Assembly (NCBI GenBank): GCA_965207455.1
Contig: CBDBMJ010000003.1
Coordinates: forward strand, 384,001 to 448,000
Reading direction: 5' to 3'
Length of the DNA: 64,000 bases
Origin: Bdellovibrionota bacterium
GTDB lineage: Bacteria; Bdellovibrionota; UBA1018; CAIPTA01; JAALKR01
Shown one piece after another: positions 7,284 through 16,079 of the stretch. The notes under the pieces were generated by a model, which saw only the letters and a program-made list of their open reading frames with translations, ran no database searches and had not been told where the DNA came from. Numbering within the stretch: position 1 is the stretch's first letter; every line of letters starts with the position of its first letter. The position numbers and the translations under genes were made by a program.

Positions 7284-9212
7284 ATGGAAAATAAATTTCA
7301 CACCATTATAGTAGGCGCAGGACATGCAGGAGTGGAAGCCGCACTGGCGAGTGCTCGCATGGGTTGTGCTACTCTTCTCTTGACGATGAACCGGAGTCGC
7401 ATTGGTTTCATGCCCTGTAACCCTGCCATTGGAGGACAAGCAAAAGGGCAACTAGCCCGGGAAATAGATGCCTTAGGTGGAGAGATGGGAATAAATGCAG
7501 ACAAAAGTGCAATCCAATACAAAAAGTTAAATAGTTCCAAGGGTCCGGCTGTGCGATCCTCACGCGCCCAATGCGATAAAAATATATATAGCGAAAATAT
7601 GAGAAAAACCATAGAGGAGCAAGTAAACCTCACAGTGTATGAAGCAGAGGTGAAAGAACTTATTATAGAAAAAAAACAATGCAGGGGAGTTCGCATCGCT
7701 AAGGGAGAAATCATTTCTGCCCACTCGGTGATTATAACCGCAGGAACTTTTTTAAAAAGCATTATGCATTGTGGAGAGTCGCAGTCAGAGGGAGGACGAG
7801 TGGGAGATAAAACATCAAACGCTTTGTCAGACACTCTTCGAGAAATTGGGTTTTCTCTTGTGCGATTAAAAACAGGAACGCCGCCAAGATTAAAAAAACA
7901 ATCCATTGATTTTTCTGTTCTCCAACCCATGCACGGAGATACTACGCCCACACCCTTTAGTTTTTATACGCGCTCCAATCCCTTTCCTTTATTGGAACAA
8001 GTGCCGTGCCACCTTACTCACACATCGACCAAAACCCACGAGATCATTTCAGGAGCTAAGGAACGTTCCCCCATGTTCAATGGGCAGATAACGGGTACAG
8101 GACCCAGGTATTGTCCCTCCATTGAGGACAAAGTGGTTCGTTTTTGGGAAAAGCAGAGTCACCAGATTTTTTTAGAACCTGAGAGCTTCTCCTCGGACGA
8201 GATCTATGCCAATGGACTATCCACCAGCTTGCCTGTGGATATCCAAGAACAGTTTTTGCACACGATCGTGGGCTTAGAAAAGGTGGAGTTGGTCAGACCT
8301 GGATACGCAGTGGAGTATGATGCTATCCAAGCCACGGGCCTCAAACACACGATGGAGTCCAAGGACATAGAAGGTCTTTTTTGCGCAGGTCAGGTGAATG
8401 GAACCAGCGGTTATGAGGAGGCCGCAGCCCAAGGACTGATAGCAGGAATAAATGCTGCATTGCATTATTATAAAAGACCACCCTTTGTTTTGGGACGGGA
8501 AGAAGCCTATATAGGTGTTTTAATAGATGATTTAGTCACAAAGGGCTGCTACGAACCTTACCGTATGTTTACCTCCAGAGTGGAATATCGTCTCCTATTA
8601 CGGGAGGAAACAGCGGATTTTCGTTTGGCAGAAAAGGGCTACAAGCTGGGACTTTTGGAAAAAGCAAAATGGCAGGTGTTTTCTGAAAAGCTAAATAACT
8701 TCAAGAGTGTGCAAAAAGCTTGGCAAACCTGTTACGTCAAACAGTCCGACTCCAAAAGAGAGGAATTAAAAAAAGAAGGGATAGCCAATATCCCCCAACG
8801 CACTTCCATATTAGAATTTTTAAAGCGACCCGAGGTTACGGTTATGAAACTCCAAAATGCAGGCTATTTATCCACAACAATAGAGGACTCTTCCCTGCCT
8901 GCTTGGATTCAAAAAGCAATTTTTTCTGAAGTAGAGGTTCATGCAAAGTACCAAGGCTATATAGATAGGGAAAAAATAACAATTGAGCGACTAAAAAAGC
9001 AGGAAGGCAGAAAAATTCCCCTCGACTTTAACTACTCGACCATAAAGGGTCTTTCCAATGAAGCTCAGGAACTATTGGGTCGAGTGCGACCCATGACCTT
9101 GGGTCAAGCGGGGCGTATTTCTGGTGTTACCCCGGCAGCCACAGCACTTTTATATATTTATTTGGAGCGAGCAAGTTCCCAAACAACGAAAGGAGATAGT
9201 CATTGCAGGTAA
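7284..9212 (+). CDS. mnmG: tRNA uridine-5-carboxymethylaminomethyl modification enzyme MnmG (GidA)
   Basis: IVGAGHAGVEAA, MPCNPAIGG, RLKTGTPPR, GPRYCPSIEDK and GQVNGTSGYEEAAAQG; probable start at the ATG of MENKF. Confidence 0.98.
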   Translation: MENKFHTIIVGAGHAGVEAALASARMGCATLLLTMNRSRIGFMPCNPAIGGQAKGQLAREIDALGGEMGINADKSAIQYKKLNSSKGPAVRSSRAQCDKNIYSENMRKTIEEQVNLTVYEAEVKELIIEKKQCRGVRIAKGEIISAHSVIITAGTFLKSIMHCGESQSEGGRVGDKTSNALSDTLREIGFSLVRLKTGTPPRLKKQSIDFSVLQPMHGDTTPTPFSFYTRSNPFPLLEQVPCHLTHTSTKTHEIISGAKERSPMFNGQITGTGPRYCPSIEDKVVRFWEKQSHQIFLEPESFSSDEIYANGLSTSLPVDIQEQFLHTIVGLEKVELVRPGYAVEYDAIQATGLKHTMESKDIEGLFCAGQVNGTSGYEEAAAQGLIAGINAALHYYKRPPFVLGREEAYIGVLIDDLVTKGCYEPYRMFTSRVEYRLLLREETADFRLAEKGYKLGLLEKAKWQVFSEKLNNFKSVQKAWQTCYVKQSDSKREELKKEGIANIPQRTSILEFLKRPEVTVMKLQNAGYLSTTIEDSSLPAWIQKAIFSEVEVHAKYQGYIDREKITIERLKKQEGRKIPLDFNYSTIKGLSNEAQELLGRVRPMTLGQAGRISGVTPAATALLYIYLERASSQTTKGDSHCR

Positions 9213-9909
9213 ATTAATCTTGGCAAAAAAGGATTGGGATTTTTTCTCCTCCTTTGTGCGTGAAGAAGAAAAGCGTAGAGGACTACCCGAGGGAGCTTGG
9301 TCCGGTCGAGAAGAAGCCTTTAACCGCAGCCTTTGTCTTTTTTTGTCCGTACTGCTGGAAAAAAATAAATATTTAAACCTCACAAGTATTCGTTCCTTTG
9401 GAGATGCAGTCTGGAAGCACCTCTATGATTCTTTATTTCTTTTGAAAGTAAACCCCCAAGGAGCCTGCCTCGACTGGGGCACTGGAGGAGGGCTTCCCGG
9501 TATCCCAATAGCTCTTTGGAGACTCCATATTCTTCAAAATAGAGAGCCAATTATTCTTTTGGATAGTCGAAGAAAAAAAATAAATGCTCTGGAAGAATTT
9601 TTACAAGCATTGGGCTTGGATTTTTGTTCCACCCAGTGCTTGCGAGGAGAGGCTTTTCTCTGTCAACTAAAAAAAGAAGAGGTTAATAGCGTTTTTCTAC
9701 GAGCTATTGTTCCCTCCCACAAAGCTATTTTATTGTTGGACCCTAAAATAAGGCAGTGGATATTTTTTTGCGGCCCAGAGGGATATAAGGACTGGGAAAA
9801 GGCAGAAAAGAAGCTAGAAAAAAAAGGCTTTTCCATGGACCCACCCTTACAATATAGCCTCCCCAAGGGGCTGGGCGGCAGGAGTATGGTTTCCCTACAA
9901 GCGAAATAA
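9202..9909 (+). CDS. rsmG: 16S rRNA (guanine527-N7)-methyltransferase RsmG (GidB); start uncertain
   Basis: NLTSI, KHLYDSL, LDWGTGGGLPGIP and LLDSRRKK; follows mnmG. Confidence 0.9.
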   Translation: MAGKLILAKKDWDFFSSFVREEEKRRGLPEGAWSGREEAFNRSLCLFLSVLLEKNKYLNLTSIRSFGDAVWKHLYDSLFLLKVNPQGACLDWGTGGGLPGIPIALWRLHILQNREPIILLDSRRKKINALEEFLQALGLDFCSTQCLRGEAFLCQLKKEEVNSVFLRAIVPSHKAILLLDPKIRQWIFFCGPEGYKDWEKAEKKLEKKGFSMDPPLQYSLPKGLGGRSMVSLQAK

Positions 9910-9961
9910 GTCATTTAAAAACAGTCACTTACAGAAATTTCCTAAAACCAGAAACTTTTAG

Positions 9962-9990
9962 TTTACTTTTTTAATTCGTTGTGTTATATT
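9962..9990 (+). promoter_or_regulatory. Putative sigma70-type promoter of cassette 1 (identical copies at 11232-11260 and 12261-12289)
   Basis: TTTACT-N17-TATATT with TG just before the -10, about 64 nt upstream of the ATG. Inverted repeat CTAAAA..TTTTAG just upstream of the -35. Confidence 0.6.
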
Positions 9991-10053
9991 ACGCAGTAAA
10001 TGGTTCCAAGGGATTTTTGAGACCGTAAAACTACAAAGAAAGAAGGAAAATTT

Positions 10054-11159
10054 ATGATGAAAAATAAGAAATTAAGCATTTTGTTTACAGCTATTGCTTT
10101 TTTGGTGCCTCAAAGTGGCTTTGCCGTAGATGAAAACTGTTATTCTCAAATGGACTATGAGATGGCAACTAAAAATATGAGAAACCTCTACCCAAACGCT
10201 AATCCTATGGAGAAGATACAGGGATATAGTTATGAATATATAACTATCGCTATCGCTTCTGGAAAACTGTGCGGCGCACATCTGAGCTATGCAGATTTGA
10301 GCGGTGCGGAACTGTGGCGTGCGGATCTGTGGCGTGCGGATCTAAGCGGTGCAAATCTGAGTGATGCGTATCTGACCTTTGCGAATCTAAGAAATGCAAA
10401 TCTGATCGGTGCGGATCTGTGGCGTGCGGATCTAAGAGGTGCAAATCTAAGTGATGCGGATCTGACCTTTGCGAATCTAAGAAATGCAAATCTGATCGGT
10501 GCGGATCTGAGTAATGCAAATCTAAGCGATGCAAATCTGCTCTATGCGAATCTAAGCGGTGCAAATCTGAATAATGCAAATCTGATCGGTGCGGATCTAA
10601 GCGGAGCAAATCTAAGCGGTGCAAATCTGTTCAGTGCGAATCTAAGCGGTGCGAATCTAAGCAGTGCGAATCTGAGAGAGGCAAAGCTGAACCGTGCAAA
10701 TCTGCTCCGTGCGAATCTAAGCGGTGCAAATCTGCTCAGTGCGGATCTAAGCGGTGCGGATCTGAGTAATGCAAATTTAAGCGGAGCAAATTTAAGCGTG
10801 CGGATCTAAGCGATGCGGATCTAAGCGATGCAAATCTGAATAATGCGTATCTGTGGGGTGCGGATCTAAGCGGTGCGGATCTAAGCGATGCGGATCTGTG
10901 GCGTGCGGATCTGACCTTTGCGAATCTAAGCAATGCAAATCTGCTCTATGCGAATCTAAGCGGTGCGGATCTGAGTAATGCAAATTTAAGCGGTGCGGAT
11001 CTGAGTAAAGCAAATTTAAGCGGTGCGTATCTGAGAGAGGCAAAGTTGGATAAAGAAGCTCGATGTGCGATAAGAAAATGGAATCAGATGGTAAGAGAGA
11101 TCAGGCAAGTAGAATTAGATAGTCTTGATGAAATCAAGGCATTTTTTCAGTGCCCTTAG
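10054..11159 (+). pseudogene. Secreted pentapeptide-repeat protein, copy 1 (52 repeats; 1-nt frameshift at about 10798)
   Basis: Signal peptide and A(D/N)Lxx repeats. The sequence 'agcgtgcg' lacks one base of 'agcggtgcg'. Adding 1 nt gives 368 aa with the same C-terminus (..KAFFQCP) as copies 2 and 3. Could be an assembly error. Confidence 0.85.
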
Positions 11160-11327
11160 GTTTGGGTTTAGTCAGAAAATTCCTATAAAAACGATCATTT
11201 ACAGAAATTCCCTAAAACCAGAAACTTTTAGTTTACTTTTTTAATTCGTTGTGTTATATTACGCAGTAAATAAATGGTTCCAAGGGATTTTTGAGACCGT
11301 AAAACTACAAAGAAAGAAGGAAAAATT

Positions 11328-12188
11328 ATGATGAAAAATAAGAAATTAAGCATTTTGTTTATAGCTATTGCTTTTTTGGTGCCTCAAAGTGGCTTTGCCG
11401 TAGATAAAAACTGTTATTCTCAAATGGACTATGAGATAGCAACTAAAAATATGAGAAACCTCTACCCAAACGCTAATCCTACGGAGAAGATACAGGGATA
11501 TGGTTATAAACATAAAACTATCGCTTCTGGAAAACTGTGCGGCGCACATCTGAGCTATGTAGATTTGAGAGGTGCGTATCTGTGGCGTGCGGATCTAAGC
11601 GGTGCAAATCTGACCTATGCAAATCTGAGTGATGCGGATCTGAGTAATGCAAATCTAAGCGGTGCGGATCTAAGCGATGCGGATCTGTGGCGTGCGGATC
11701 TAAGCGGTGCGGATCTAAGCGATGCAAATCTGAGTGATGCGGATCTGATCTTTGCGAATCTAAGCGGTGCGGATCTAAGCGATGCGGATCTGTGGCGTGC
11801 GGATCTAAGAGGTGCGGATCTAAGCGATGCGGATCTGTGGCGTGCGGATCTAAGAGGTGCGGATCTGAGCTTTGCGAATCTAAGCGGTGCAAATCTGATC
11901 GGTGCGGATCTGAGTAATGCAAATCTGATCGGTGCGGATCTAAGCGGTGCGAATCTAAGCGGAGCAAATCTGATCGGTGCGGATCTGATCGGTGCGGATC
12001 TGAGTAATGCAAATCTGATCGGTGCGGATCTGAGTAATGCAAATCTAAGCGGTGCGGATCTGAGAGAGGCAAAGTTGGATAAAGAAGCTCGATGTGCGAT
12101 AAAAAAATGGAATCAGACAGTAGGAGAGAATGCGCAAGCAGAATTAAGTTATGTTAATGAATTCAAGGCATTTTTTCAGTGCCCTTAG
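11328..12188 (+). CDS. Secreted pentapeptide-repeat protein, copy 2 (36 repeats)
   Basis: Sec-type signal [24 protein letters not shown], 36 consecutive A(D/N)Lxx-type units, and two Cys in each flanking cap. Confidence 0.93.
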
Positions 12189-12351
12189 GTTTGGGTTTAG
12201 TCAGAAAATTCCTATAAAAACGATCATTTACAGAAATTTCCTAAAACCAGAAACTTTTAGTTTACTTTTTTAATTCGTTGTGTTATATTACGCAGTAAAT
12301 GGTTCCAAGGGATTTTTGAGACCGTAAAACTACAAAGAAAGAAGGAAAATT

Positions 12352-13287
12352 ATGATGAAAAATAAGAAATTAAGCATTTTGTTTATAGCTATTGCTTTTT
12401 TGGTGCCTCAAAGTGGCTTTGCCGTAGATAAAAACTGTTATTCTCAAATGGACTATGAGATAGCAACTAAAAATATGAGAAACCTCTACCCAAACGCTAA
12501 TCCTATGGAGAAGATACAGGGATATAGTTATGAATATATAACTATCGCTTCTGGAAAACTGTGCGGCGCACATCTGAGCTATGTAGATTTGAGAGGTGCG
12601 TATCTGTGGCGTGCGGATCTAAGCGGTGCAAATCTGACCTATGCAAATCTGATCGGTGCGGATCTGTGGCGTGCGTATCTAAGCGGTGCGAATCTAAGCG
12701 GAGCAAATCTAAGCGGTGCGGATCTAAACGATGCAAATCTGCTCTATGCGAATCTAAGCGGTGCAAATCTGTTCAGTGCGGATCTGAGTAATGCAAATCT
12801 AAGCGATGCGGATCTGTGGCATGCGGATCTGACCTTTGCGAATCTAAGCGGTGCAAATCTGAGTGATGCGGATCTGACCTTTGCGAATCTAAGCAATGCA
12901 AATCTGCTCTATGCGAATCTAAGCAATGCAAATCTGCTCAGTGCGAATCTAAGCGATGCGGATCTGTGGCGTGCGAATCTGACCTATGCAAATCTGATCG
13001 GTGCGGATCTGAGAGAGGCAAAGCTGAACCGTGCAAATCTGCTCCGTGCGAATCTAAGCGGTGCAAATCTGCTCAGTGCGAATCTAAGCGGTGCGAATCT
13101 GACCTATGCAAATCTGATCGGTGCGGATCTGAGTAATGCAAATTTAAGCGGTGCGGATCTGAGAGAGGCAAAGTTGGATAAAGAAGCTCGATGTGCGATA
13201 AAAAAATGGAATCAGACAGTAGGAGAGAGCAAGCAAGTAGAATTAGATAGTCTTGATGAAATCAAGGCATTTTTTCAGTGCCCTTAG
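12352..13287 (+). CDS. Secreted pentapeptide-repeat protein, copy 3 (41 repeats)
   Basis: Same architecture as copy 2, with 41 repeats in a different order. Confidence 0.93.
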   Translation: MMKNKKLSILFIAIAFLVPQSGFAVDKNCYSQMDYEIATKNMRNLYPNANPMEKIQGYSYEYITIASGKLCGAHLSYVDLRGAYLWRADLSGANLTYANLIGADLWRAYLSGANLSGANLSGADLNDANLLYANLSGANLFSADLSNANLSDADLWHADLTFANLSGANLSDADLTFANLSNANLLYANLSNANLLSANLSDADLWRANLTYANLIGADLREAKLNRANLLRANLSGANLLSANLSGANLTYANLIGADLSNANLSGADLREAKLDKEARCAIKKWNQTVGESKQVELDSLDEIKAFFQCP

Positions 13288-13394
13288 GTTTGGGTTTAGT
13301 CAGAAAATTCCTATAAAAACAATCATTTACAGTATGATTAAATACTTTAACACCTCAATATTCATTTAAAAGCCTGAATTTATAGGGAAAATAG

Positions 13395-13610
13395 CAGGGA
13401 TATGCTTATAAACATAAAACTATCGTTTCTGGAAAACTGTGCGGTGCGAATCTGACCTATGCAAATCTAAGCGGTGCGGATCTGAGAGAGGCAAAGTTGG
13501 ATAAAGAAGCTCGATGTGCGATAAAAAAATGGAATCAGACAGTAGGAGAGAGCAAGCAAGTAGAATTAGATAGTCTTGATGAAATCAAGGCATTTTTTCA
13601 GTGCCCTTAG
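13395..13610 (+). pseudogene. 5'-truncated pentapeptide-repeat gene remnant, copy 4 (4 repeats, no start codon)
   Basis: Reads [41 protein letters not shown]...FFQCP*. It is preceded by an in-frame TAG and has no signal peptide or cassette promoter. Confidence 0.88.
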
Positions 13611-13731
13611 ACTAAGATGGGTTCAGCTACAAGATAACAAATCTCTTGACCTGATGGCGTGTGCGTCTAGGGTTGTTTTTGTGTGAATAGCTATTAACTT
13701 TAGAGGTCCATGGTACCAAGCTCTTTGCCCA

Positions 13732-13747
13732 TGTTCCACGTGGAACA
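13732..13747. promoter_or_regulatory. parS: parS centromere-like site
   Basis: Perfect palindrome TGTTCCACGTGGAACA matching the chromosomal parS consensus, 1.5 kb upstream of parAB. Confidence 0.95.
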
Positions 13748-13766
13748 TTTAAAATACGCTAGGTAC

Positions 13767-13801
13767 AAAAAAGCCCTCTCTATTTCTAGAGAAGGCTTTT
13801 A
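13767..13801. terminator. Probable bidirectional intrinsic terminator
   Basis: AAAAAAGCCCTCTCTA-TTTC-TAGAGAAGGCTTTT hairpin with A and T tracts, between convergent genes. Confidence 0.7.
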
Positions 13802-13866
13802 GTGCAATTATAATAAACTATATAGTTTATTGTCTATATCAAAACTTTCAGTATCTTTTCAGAGAC

Positions 13867-14196
13867 TTAATAGTCGCCTTGATCATTGTCATCAGCAGCG
13901 TTTGCTTTACACTCGTTCAATCTTTTTTTCGACGCAGTGTAAACATGATCATCAGACATACCACCAAATAGCCATGCTAAAGTTGTAGTAGGCAATGCAA
14001 CGTAACTAAGCCCAGGCCAAATAAGTAGAGTAGCTTCATCATAACACGGATTACTACCCGCACTGCGTTCTACTGATTGCCACATCACATGTGGATTTTC
14101 CCATTCCTGTTCCTCTTCATATTCACTGTAGCCGATTGTTGGTGATGCTATAGCAAAAGCCATTAGCATTATTGTTAGTATATTTTTATTTTTCAT
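13867..14196 (-). CDS. Small secreted hypothetical protein
   Basis: Signal peptide MKNKNILTIMLMAFAIASPTIGYS, two Cys, GGGGAG upstream. Confidence 0.65.
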   Translation of the reverse strand: MKNKNILTIMLMAFAIASPTIGYSEYEEEQEWENPHVMWQSVERSAGSNPCYDEATLLIWPGLSYVALPTTTLAWLFGGMSDDHVYTASKKRLNECKANAADDNDQGDY

Positions 14197-14651
14197 CTCC
14201 CCAATTGACTCATAAAAATATGTGTCAAAATAGCTTTAAAAACAATAGATTGCGACTCCAAGAAAAACTTAGCATACTAAAAGAGTATGTTACATAGAGG
14301 ATCCACAACTTTATCATAGCAGCAGAGGGGTTAATTTTGTGGTTGTGGTCTATTTATGCAACAACACGATATTAAATTTGCAACTATATGTTTTTATTAA
14401 ATTAATTTGATTGCTTGGTCTCAAAGAGAGGGGTCGCCACACGCTTCCATGCTCTGCGAGCTCCTCTCACGTCAGCAAAAACATGAAATAAGTTGAAGTT
14501 ATTATGGGAGTTCTGCCGTTATTTAGAACGGTTATCTAACAAAACTCGCCTGACCGCTCGTCGTTAGCGAGGCACGCCTTAAATTAGAAAAAACGAGGTT
14601 TGCAATTAATGTGACACCGAAAAGAAGCGCCACATCATATATTTTTTATTT

Positions 14652-15041
14652 CTAAAGCGCACTATGTATAGAGTCTCTCAGGCTTTGGGTTATATTTTTG
14701 ACTGCCCGAGTTCTTTGCTTTGCCGTCAACTCGCTTGCTACGATATCCATCAGTTTGAGTGTCTCAACGAGCAAGAGGAGTTTTCCTTCTTTTGAATTCC
14801 CGATGCCGTAAAGGAGAGCCATAAAATAATAACTCTCTTCCTTTGTTAATCCCTCCATGCTGTTTTTTAGTATTTGCATTGTTTTGCCTTTTTCGTCTAC
14901 AGCCTTGAGCATATTTTCTGCAGTCAACTCATTAGCAGAACACACCCCCTCGTCAGACAACTCATCTTCTCCGTACGTGGGCGAAGCAGATACTCCTATA
15001 GCAAGTACTATTGTTATTATTGTTATTATTTTTTTACTCAT
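14652..15041 (-). CDS. Small secreted hypothetical protein
   Basis: Signal peptide MSKKIITIITIVLAIGVSASPTYG; AAGGAG upstream. Confidence 0.7.
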   Translation of the reverse strand: MSKKIITIITIVLAIGVSASPTYGEDELSDEGVCSANELTAENMLKAVDEKGKTMQILKNSMEGLTKEESYYFMALLYGIGNSKEGKLLLLVETLKLMDIVASELTAKQRTRAVKNITQSLRDSIHSAL

Positions 15042-15230: not shown

Positions 15231-16079
15231 ATGGCGAAAGTAATTGCTATTATCAATCAAAAAGGCGGAGTGGGTAAAACAACCACAGCGATAAACTTGG
15301 CAGCGTCTTTTGCTGTCGCAGAGCACGAAACTCTGTTGCTGGATTTTGATCCCCAGGGGAACGCCACCAGCGGTCTGGGAATGTCCGATAAAATTAAAAA
15401 TAATAAAACAGTTTACCAGGCTCTCATCGGAGAATGCTCTTTGGAGGAAACGTTATTGCAAACGGAATTGTCGGAACTTTTTGTCGCGCCAGCGGATCGC
15501 AATTTAAGTGGAGCAGAAATAGAGTTGGTGGGAGAACTGGCACGGGAGTTTAAATTAAAAACAATGCTGGAACCCCTGTTAGATAAGTTCGACTATATAT
15601 TGTTGGACTGCCCCCCAAGTTTAAGCTTATTGACGATAAATGCACTAACGGCAGCAGACTCCTATCTTGTGCCACTACAAAGTGAATATTTTGCACTGGA
15701 AGGACTGTCTCAGTTGGAGTCCACCGTATCCTCCATTCAGAAATCATTAAATCCAGAACTAAAGCCAGAGGGAATTTTATTGACGATGTTTGATTCTCGC
15801 AACAACTTAGCAAAAGAAGTTTGCCAAGAGGCCCGAACCCACTTTGGAGATTTAGTTTTTCAAACACCCATCCCCCGAAACGTTCGCTTGAGTGAAGCTC
15901 CCAGCTACGGCAAACCAGTTTTGCTCTATGATATTGAGTCCAAGGGAGCAATGGCGTATTTGTCTGTGGCAAGAGAAATTATTCAAAATCAAGTGTCGGA
16001 AAAAAAACAAGCATCAACGTTTACCGAAACAAATATGCCTGGAAGAATGAATACATTTGAACAGGATCAAAGACTATAA
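15231..16079 (+). CDS. parA: Chromosome partitioning ATPase ParA/Soj
   Basis: [26 protein letters not shown] and [14 protein letters not shown]. Confidence 0.98.

What the first reader, a model, noticed from the sequence alone, without database searches (positions are those of the whole stretch)
9916..13610. Tandem self-promoted cassettes encoding length- and sequence-variable secreted pentapeptide-repeat proteins (best candidate for an undescribed system)
Seen: three head-to-tail units each carry their own promoter, RBS, signal peptide, Cys-containing N-cap and C-cap, almost identical at DNA level. They enclose 52, 36 and 41 pentapeptides in different orders, followed by a 4-repeat remnant. 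Inference: constant caps around a rewritten repeat core look like a recombination-driven diversification locus for an exported beta-helix rather than a passive duplication. No recombinase or reverse transcriptase is in the window, so host recombination or slippage would have to drive it.
Basis: partly seen in the sequence, partly recalled or inferred. Interest (0 to 1): 0.85.

Follow-up and report, generated by a model that had tools for sequence, protein, structure and literature searches.

The report
Shuffled exported pentapeptide-repeat gene array
A bacterium of the Bdellovibrio group carries three back-to-back copies and a remnant of a gene for an exported rod-shaped repeat protein whose middle is reshuffled between copies and between sequenced variants, most likely by ordinary DNA recombination under pressure to vary its surface, not by a dedicated diversifying enzyme.

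Summary
The array is real: three cassettes plus a remnant fill an rsmG-parA gap that is empty in 12 of 12 relatives; read-derived depth of the shared 5' end is 135.6 against 32-46 in the flanks. Two corrections: unit 1 has a 1-nt deletion in its core, and the remnant lost promoter and signal peptide to an IS1595-type end. Cores are built from one small pool of 15-bp modules in different orders, sharing only short tracts. Variation beyond the assembly is seen: run X1 holds cap alleles and junctions absent from the genome, and another public contig encodes a mosaic cap and a new core order. All 19 variable cap codons change the amino acid (P 0.04-0.13), hinting at diversifying selection. No reverse transcriptase was found in the genome; RecA is present, and many other repeat genes there are internally homogenised. 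Best reading: concerted evolution by ordinary short-repeat recombination in a lineage-specific exported pentapeptide family, a contingency-like locus of unknown target. The scan noted capped pentapeptide arrays before in phages, not this family. New variant of a known kind.

The parts
9202..9909 (+). rsmG (gidB), left boundary gene; start codon approximate
   Evidence: Pfam GidB E=1e-22
9910..10053 (+). Unit 1 upstream region: promoter-like site 9962-9990, RBS about 10041-10047
10054..11159 (+). Unit 1: signal peptide, N-cap (to 10275), core 10276-11039, C-cap 11040-11159; 1-nt deletion in module 10786-10799, ORF stops at 10809
11160..11327 (+). Unit 2 upstream region: promoter-like site 11232-11260 and RBS
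11328..12188 (+). Unit 2, intact 286-aa pentapeptide-repeat protein: core 11544-12068 (35 modules), Cys 29, 71, 256, 285
12189..12351 (+). Unit 3 upstream region: promoter-like site 12261-12289 and RBS
12352..13287 (+). Unit 3, intact 311-aa pentapeptide-repeat protein: core 12568-13167 (40 modules)
13288..13332 (+). First 45 nt of a fourth upstream region, broken off before the promoter
13333..13396 (+). Fragment like the left end (terminal repeat and leader) of an IS1595-family element; stands where promoter and signal peptide of copy 4 would be
   Evidence: blastn to C1:1071688, C1:877330, C1:674944, C1:611572; transposase Pfam PF12762/PF12760
13395..13610 (+). Remnant copy 4: end of a unit-2-type N-cap, 3 modules, C-cap identical to unit 3 (120 of 120 nt)
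13765..13800 (.). Hairpin-like sequence repeated at other places of the genome, probable terminator
13867..14196 (-). 109-aa ORF with signal-peptide-like start, one paralog at C3:146234; part of the same insert, not of the array
14652..15041 (-). 129-aa ORF with signal-peptide-like start, no family above cut-off
15231..16079 (+). parA, right boundary gene
   Evidence: Pfam AAA_31 E=8e-62

Best explanation
A young tandem amplification of one member of a lineage-specific family of Sec-exported, Cys-capped pentapeptide-repeat (beta-helix) proteins, evolving by concerted evolution. Shown: the unit of duplication is promoter + gene; all cores draw on one pool of 15-bp modules; shared tracts are short (mean 18-25 nt, longest 85); caps are mosaic; other alleles exist in public data. 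Inferred: two tiers of ordinary host recombination do it. Misalignment between the 15-bp repeats (slippage, template switching, short conversion) adds, deletes and swaps modules, and exchange between the 1.0-1.3 kb units (unequal crossing-over or conversion, RecA) changes copy number and mixes caps. Because each module is one face-step of the helix, an in-frame change keeps the fold but alters rod length and re-registers the outward residues. Inferred more weakly: selection favours new surfaces, as for a binding protein or decoy that meets a variable outside partner (phage, prey or host molecule) in the periplasm or beyond. The partner is unknown.
For: 128 whole modules use 9 first-half and 32 second-half DNA words; synonymous Leu and Ala codons are tied to neighbouring codons (MI 0.70 and 0.43 vs shuffle maxima 0.28 and 0.14), which means DNA copying. 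Module identity within cores 70-74% vs 48-56% in four dispersed paralogs, which share 1 of 174 modules with the array. Tract parse: 43/21/24 tracts vs 58/32/40 for shuffled modules. Cap sites are incongruent: all four combinations occur at N-cap codons 27 and 52 (units 1-3 plus P0004) and at C-cap codons 12 and 24 (units 1-3 plus the X1 allele). X1 C-cap allele (depth 56.7) has three amino-acid changes absent from the genome. 19 of 19 variable cap codons change the residue, about 24.5 replacement vs 1.5 silent steps by my hand tally, P 0.04-0.13; the four X1 differences in flanking mnmG are 4 of 4 silent. Beta-helix model pLDDT 82, Z 31.6 to HetL, rmsd 1.9, 223 aligned. RecA present. Short nearby direct repeats undergo RecA-independent deletion and expansion in E. 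coli (PMC7145654, passages).
Against: The selection signal is small and not clearly significant, and copies are not independent. One unit is frameshifted and one is a remnant, as in a decaying array. MutS and MutL are present, so no mutator background helps. X1 may be the sample the window came from, its contigs cannot be phased into whole alleles, and the two junctions with unique context have short sides (25, 28 nt) at a relaxed likeness; one other joint proved to be a paralog artefact and a second probably is. P0001/P0004 come from a frameshift-ridden contig. No expression data, no SignalP run, no partner.
Confidence: 0.6

Rival explanations
1. Passive by-product: a duplicated, dispensable or dosage-selected gene whose 15-bp repeats are unstable; variation is neutral and the array is decaying.
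For: Unit 1 frameshift and IS-truncated copy 4; many other unstable repeat genes in this genome; excess of replacement changes only P 0.04-0.13; outward positions of any pentapeptide repeat tolerate change (recalled).
Against: 19 of 19 variable cap codons are replacements, plus 4 of 4 new X1 cap differences, against 4 of 4 silent ones in mnmG; no stop codon in 128 whole modules, Leu invariant and Ala in 126 of 128; promoter-like site identical in all three units.
Confidence: 0.27
2. A dedicated, enzyme-driven diversifier (DGR, shufflon, silent-cassette conversion, or programmed shuffling) acting in trans.
For: Very fine scrambling against near-identical 5' ends; 9 tyrosine-recombinase and 1 resolvase matches elsewhere in the genome.
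Against: 0 RVT_1 matches in the genome (94.7% complete); all units direct, no long inverted repeat in 9000-14500 besides one palindrome outside the array; three copies have their own promoter, so no silent-donor layout; cap copies elsewhere are only distant paralogs; changes are not limited to adenines.
Confidence: 0.06
3. Assembly artefact: one gene, or a mixture of strain alleles, laid out as a tandem array.
For: X1 holds at least two haplotypes (bubble 15.7 of 39.3 at 9068-9122), no listed X1 piece spans the array, and the assembly's own unit-2 C-cap letters were not among the laid contigs.
Against: Shared 5' contig depth 135.6 vs 32-46 for six flank contigs, 2.9-4.2 fold; X1 contigs join rsmG to the first upstream region and the last C-cap to unique flank; apparent frameshifts in only 1 of 87 conserved genes, about 102 kb. 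The exact order of modules and the unit-1 deletion remain unverified by reads.
Confidence: 0.04
4. Qnr/MfpA-type DNA mimic protecting or inhibiting gyrase.
For: Same fold; acidic cores (pI 4.35 and 4.70); next to parAB.
Against: Signal-peptide-like N-terminus and four Cys point to export; NCBIfam Qnr and MfpA scores at most 82 bits vs cut-offs 240-500; variable length.
Confidence: 0.03

Closest known systems
Pentapeptide-repeat proteins (PF00805), exported Rfr type: Rfr32 (2F3L/2G0Y), At2g44920 (3N90); HetL (3DU1), Np275/276 (2J8K)
   Same: Right-handed quadrilateral beta-helix; Rfr32 has a signal peptide and a two-helix, disulfide-held C-cap (PMC8145042, passages), as the model suggests here (two C-terminal helices, one Cys in or beside each).
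   Different: Caps match no solved structure by sequence and no other genome among 126 of the class, bar one chance-level N-cap hit in an unrelated protein; cores are DNA-homogenised, multi-copy and shuffled.
High-internal-conservation (HiC) WD/ANK/TPR repeats of fungal NLRs (Podospora HNWD)
   Same: Repeat shuffling within and between family members, length polymorphism, diversifying selection on a binding face (PMC4986451, passages).
   Different: Bacterial, exported, no NOD or effector domain; unit of 5 residues; amino-acid identity among modules 55-60%, under the 85% HiC threshold; genes in tandem.
Periscope proteins (Rib, SasG)
   Same: Rod whose length varies through near-identical DNA repeats (PMC9704523, abstract and section 6).
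   Different: Periscope repeats were defined as over 50 residues, mostly wall-anchored stalks; here 5-residue modules, order as well as number varies, no anchor seen.
HYP effectors of potato cyst nematodes
   Same: Secreted, conserved ends with replacement polymorphisms, centre of short motifs varying in number and order (PMC4177990, abstract and section 8).
   Different: Eukaryotic and unrelated in sequence; analogy of layout only.
TAL effectors of Xanthomonas (recalled, no call)
   Same: Constant ends around a recombining repeat array in a multi-gene family.
   Different: 34-residue helical DNA-reading repeats, type III secreted; no such code is evident here.

Membership tests
Pentapeptide-repeat protein superfamily | [quoted passage not shown] | tested here: met
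   35 and 40 contiguous modules; PF00805 221 and 214 bits vs cut-off 20.2; criterion from PMC8145042 abstract passage
Pentapeptide-repeat protein superfamily | Right-handed quadrilateral beta-helix | tested here: met
   AlphaFold model, core pLDDT 92-99; Z 31.6, rmsd 1.9, 223 aligned to 3DU1. Prediction, not a solved structure.
Qnr / MfpA / AlbG gyrase-binding PRPs | Score above family cut-off | tested here: not met
   At most 82 bits vs 240-500
Qnr / MfpA / AlbG gyrase-binding PRPs | Cytoplasmic, no signal peptide | tested here: not met
   Lys-rich start, hydrophobic stretch (window mean up to 3.1), GFA before residue 25; judged by eye, no SignalP
HetL, PipB, PipB2 equivalogs | Score above cut-off | tested here: not met
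   142-144 vs 260; 110-130 vs 274/354
Alr5209 equivalog | Score above cut-off with one full-length match | tested here: inconclusive
   150 and 226 vs 125, but summed over 4-6 partial stretches of a 113-position model
Exported Rfr32-type PRPs | Signal peptide plus disulfide-bonded two-helix C-cap | tested here: inconclusive
   Two helices and two Cys predicted; no sequence match of the cap to 2F3L or 3N90; disulfide not testable
HiC concerted repeats | Over 85% amino-acid identity over 100 residues | tested here: not met
   Mean pairwise module identity 55-60% aa, 70-74% nt; my measure is per module, not the paper's exact procedure
HiC concerted repeats | Exchange of repeats within and between family members | tested here: met
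   Shared 15-mers and tracts, codon linkage, mosaic caps
HiC concerted repeats | Positive selection on defined surface positions | tested here: inconclusive
   Caps P 0.04-0.13; no formal test on cores
Diversity-generating retroelement | Reverse transcriptase | tested here: not met
   0 PF00078 matches in G000, 94.7% complete; control rang in 3 of 14 genomes
Diversity-generating retroelement | Template/variable pair differing at adenines only | tested here: not met
   Differences involve all four bases and module order
Shufflon / inverton | Inverted recombination sites around cassettes | tested here: not met
   No inverted repeat of 25 nt or more inside the array; shorter sites not excluded
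Silent-cassette gene conversion (pilE/pilS, vlsE type; recalled) | One expression locus plus promoterless donors | tested here: not met
   Three copies each carry promoter-like site, RBS and signal peptide; no close cap copies elsewhere
Periscope proteins | Repeats over 50 residues, cell-surface attachment | tested here: not met
   5-residue modules; no lipobox or C-terminal anchor seen by eye
Any of the above | Expression, export and binding partner | not testable with these tools
   No RNA holder listed

The most novel reading that the evidence does not exclude
A selected bacterial 'variable solenoid' locus: several co-expressed, self-promoted cassettes act as each other's donors and keep producing exported beta-helix binders with new surfaces and new cap loops within one population, an enzyme-free antibody-like repertoire built on the pentapeptide fold and aimed at phage, prey or host molecules. 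It would give a handle on the largely unknown function of exported pentapeptide-repeat proteins.
Probability: 0.25. Interest if true: 0.75.

Novelty: new variant of a known kind. Interest (0 to 1): 0.45.

Why it matters
Most pentapeptide-repeat proteins have no known biochemical function (PMC8145042, abstract passage). A locus where an exported one is amplified, shuffled at 15-bp resolution and shows only replacement changes in its caps points to a recognition role and marks which residues to test. It also carries concerted repeat shuffling, known from fungal NLRs and surface adhesins, over to a very short repeat unit in Bdellovibrionota. If neutral, it is an ordinary unstable repeat gene. My searches listed no paper on such an array; the library lacks most subscription journals and I read no supplements.

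Tried and rejected
N-cap homologue search: 0 of 5 candidates passed. Profile of 7 N-caps against 1.84 billion representatives: 3 hits, one a near-copy of this family (P0001), two unrelated. Whole-protein search: 245 hits at E<=1e-40 among 7999 scored, best 120 listed, covering 55-94% of the query at 38-68% identity, taken as generic repeat matches and not inspected one by one. JGI metagenome scan: 1 of 276 candidates, signal-peptide region only, not followed; the same scan with the alignment could not build patterns. Class-wide cap searches: N-cap 1 of 126 other genomes (E 7e-4, an unrelated 464-aa protein), C-cap 0 of 126: not found in those searched, and no genome of the same genus was among them. 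ESM Atlas: generic pentapeptide clusters, 0.92 at best. No RNA holder listed. X2: 0 records laid. Of five X1 joints inside the array, 10628->12679 is explained by the paralog at C1:1733390 and 12713->11632 was dropped by inference (same depth, 35.7); two long loose ends also belong to that paralog. Binned depth over the array was not used for copy number, since short overlapping contigs inflate it. X1's word share of 0.81 was not used as evidence of strain difference, since contigs drop variants. Whether the unit-1 deletion is real could not be decided: X1 lists no indel, and shows other sequence upstream of 10804 (depth 19.5). PMC7159879 (passages) mentions pentapeptides only as effector domains. 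No complex prediction was run, since no partner is in view.
Full report
Observation. The window holds three head-to-tail units starting at 10054, 11328 and 12352 and a 3' remnant ending at 13610. Each unit has an upstream block of 144-168 nt, a signal-peptide-like start, an N-cap ending in GKLCG, a core of 15-bp modules and a 39-residue C-cap. Units 2 and 3 are intact (286 and 311 aa). Unit 1 has one 14-nt module at 10786-10799, so its ORF stops at 10809. In the remnant, promoter and signal peptide are replaced by 64 nt resembling the left end of an IS1595-family element found at four other places of the genome, one with its transposase.

Is it real? Run X1 (contigs from reads; possibly the sample behind the assembly, so no independent sample) gives depth 135.6 on the contig of the shared promoter and N-cap, against 46, 40, 35.2, 32.9, 32.3 and 36.2 on flank contigs, i.e. 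three to four copies. Its contigs link rsmG to the first upstream block and the last C-cap to the unique right flank, with no other letters over about 3.8 kb of flank except one four-letter bubble. Conserved genes show an apparent frameshift in 1 of 87 cases over 102 kb (87 of 279 query ORFs qualified; a second two-frame case was a neighbouring paralog, and 3 had a stop inside a match). The unit-1 deletion is thus not a typical error of this assembly, though errors gather in repeats and reads did not settle it.

Context. ParA's best named matches are Oligoflexia, Bdellovibrionota and Bacteriovoracaceae. In 12 of 12 relatives rsmG ends 52-368 nt (from the end of the match) before parA with no pentapeptide match; here the gap is 5.3 kb. 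Among 80 wider loci, 31 showed rsmG and none a pentapeptide gene. The insert also carries two small signal-peptide ORFs of a kind scattered over the genome. The genome holds two dispersed single genes with the same caps (C1:1350758, C1:1733118), a more distant tandem pair (C3:327361, C3:329046) and two fragments. The caps were not found in 126 other genomes of the class apart from one chance-level hit, nor in large protein collections apart from one near-copy. The family looks lineage-specific, but no genome of the same genus was available.

The proteins. Pfam PF00805 scores 221 and 214 bits. The model of unit 2 is a beta-helix with core pLDDT 92-99, two C-terminal helices and a poorly predicted N-cap, aligning to HetL with Z 31.6, rmsd 1.9 over 223 residues. 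Qnr, MfpA, HetL and PipB cut-offs are missed. Four Cys (29, 71, 256, 285) could form one disulfide per cap (inference), as in the C-cap of the exported Rfr32 (PMC8145042, passages). In 128 whole modules Leu is invariant and Ala nearly so (126), while the three other positions vary (entropy 1.5, 2.3, 2.7 bits); that these three face outward is recalled knowledge of the fold.

How the cores change. The modules come from a small DNA vocabulary: 46 different 15-mers (which counts one read across the break), 9 first halves and 32 second halves, with silent codon choice tied to the next codon far above shuffles. This is copying of DNA, not convergence of protein. Module identity inside array cores is 70-74%, against 48-56% in four dispersed paralogs, which share 1 of 174 modules with the array: homogenisation is local to the tandem. 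Yet order is scrambled: only four shared runs reach three modules (longest five, at the start of units 2 and 3; 0.2 expected by chance), and each core parses into 21-43 pieces of mean 18-25 nt found in the others. Direct repeats under 200 bp within a few kb undergo RecA-independent deletion, with crossovers and expansions, in E. coli (PMC7145654, passages). RecA, MutS and MutL are present; no reverse transcriptase was found. Nine tyrosine-recombinase and one resolvase matches lie on other contigs, none on C3.

Variation beyond the assembly. X1 carries a 120-nt C-cap contig (depth 56.7) with four differences from unit 2; three are replacements not present in the genome. It also shows an N-cap replacement (10218, depth 19.1), a core variant (depth 11.1) and three module junctions absent from the genome as exact 14+14 matches (depths 45.5, 28.5, 19.5). 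Two further joints were dropped as paralog artefacts, one shown and one inferred, and the tool warns that short-sided joints at relaxed likeness are unreliable, so I rest on the cap alleles. A 6,545-nt contig of another public assembly encodes P0004, whose N-cap mixes unit-1 and unit-2 residues and whose shifted-frame tail reads as a run of the commonest module longer than any in the window (3 vs at most 2 units of the test motif), and probably P0001 too. That contig is full of frameshifts and may come from the same sample. Cap sites show all four combinations at two pairs of positions, a sign of recombination between copies.

Selection. Among the window's copies 19 of 19 variable cap codons change the residue (8 N-cap, 11 C-cap). 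My hand tally is 24.5 replacement and 1.5 silent steps with 17.9% silent sites, giving P 0.04-0.13, or 0.005-0.03 if 25% silent changes are expected. X1's four new cap differences are all replacements; its four mnmG differences are all silent. Five of the eight N-cap changes and the three new C-cap changes fall in segments that the dispersed paralogs lack. This hints at exposed loops under diversifying selection; the numbers are small and copies are not independent. Against it stand one frameshifted and one truncated copy.

How special. The genome has dozens of internally repeated coding stretches, among them RCC1, DUF285, Sel1 and Ig-like repeats (5 of 6 tested proteins had a family). An earlier AI note describes shuffled RCC1 repeats in this genome, and others describe capped pentapeptide arrays in phages (leads only). 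Concerted shuffling with diversifying selection is established for fungal NLR repeats (PMC4986451, passages), length variation for Periscope proteins (PMC9704523, abstract and section 6), and constant ends around reordered short motifs for nematode HYP effectors (PMC4177990, abstract and section 8). Searches listed no paper on a bacterial tandem array of exported, shuffled pentapeptide genes; I saw listings only for those, and read no supplements.

Verdict. Real, variable, probably selected, and explained by known host recombination. It works like a concerted-evolution contingency locus; it is not a DGR, shufflon, silent-cassette system or Qnr protein by the tests run. New are the fold and the fine grain of the shuffling, and the family's caps. 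Interest 0.45.

Noticed in passing
window 13320-13340 and G000 C1:1071700: Both IS1595-type left ends are preceded by a similar A-rich motif, also found upstream of each unit and of the paralog at C1:1733118; it resembles an IHF site (consensus recalled). Possible target preference.
   Followed up: no
window 13765-13800: Hairpin-like 36-nt sequence repeated at about ten other places of the genome, near small signal-peptide ORFs.
   Followed up: partly
window 13867-14196 and 14652-15041 (- strand): Small ORFs whose signal-peptide DNA recurs at more than ten places of the genome in front of unrelated-looking mature parts: a family of orphan exported proteins with a shared leader.
   Followed up: partly
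window 9068-9122: Four silent differences within 55 nt of mnmG in a 40% haplotype of run X1, with identical flanks: a short recombined tract or a second strain.
   Followed up: partly
G000 C3:483600-494900 (L155): A second tandem set: three 627-659-aa exported-looking proteins with 72-bp internal repeats, alternating with two 477-aa genes with the same start; the one tested had no Pfam match.
   Followed up: no
G000 C3:327361-329792: Tandem pair of exported pentapeptide genes (562 and 248 aa) with no DNA-level homogenisation; a natural control for the array.
   Followed up: partly
G000 C1:1746522-1746900 and C1:1788180-1788338: Two fragments related to the capped pentapeptide family, suggesting repeated birth and death of copies.
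   Followed up: partly
G000 C1:1070800-1071620 (L020): The IS1595-family transposase appears to stop just before its usual end, a likely frameshift; the only copy found.
   Followed up: no
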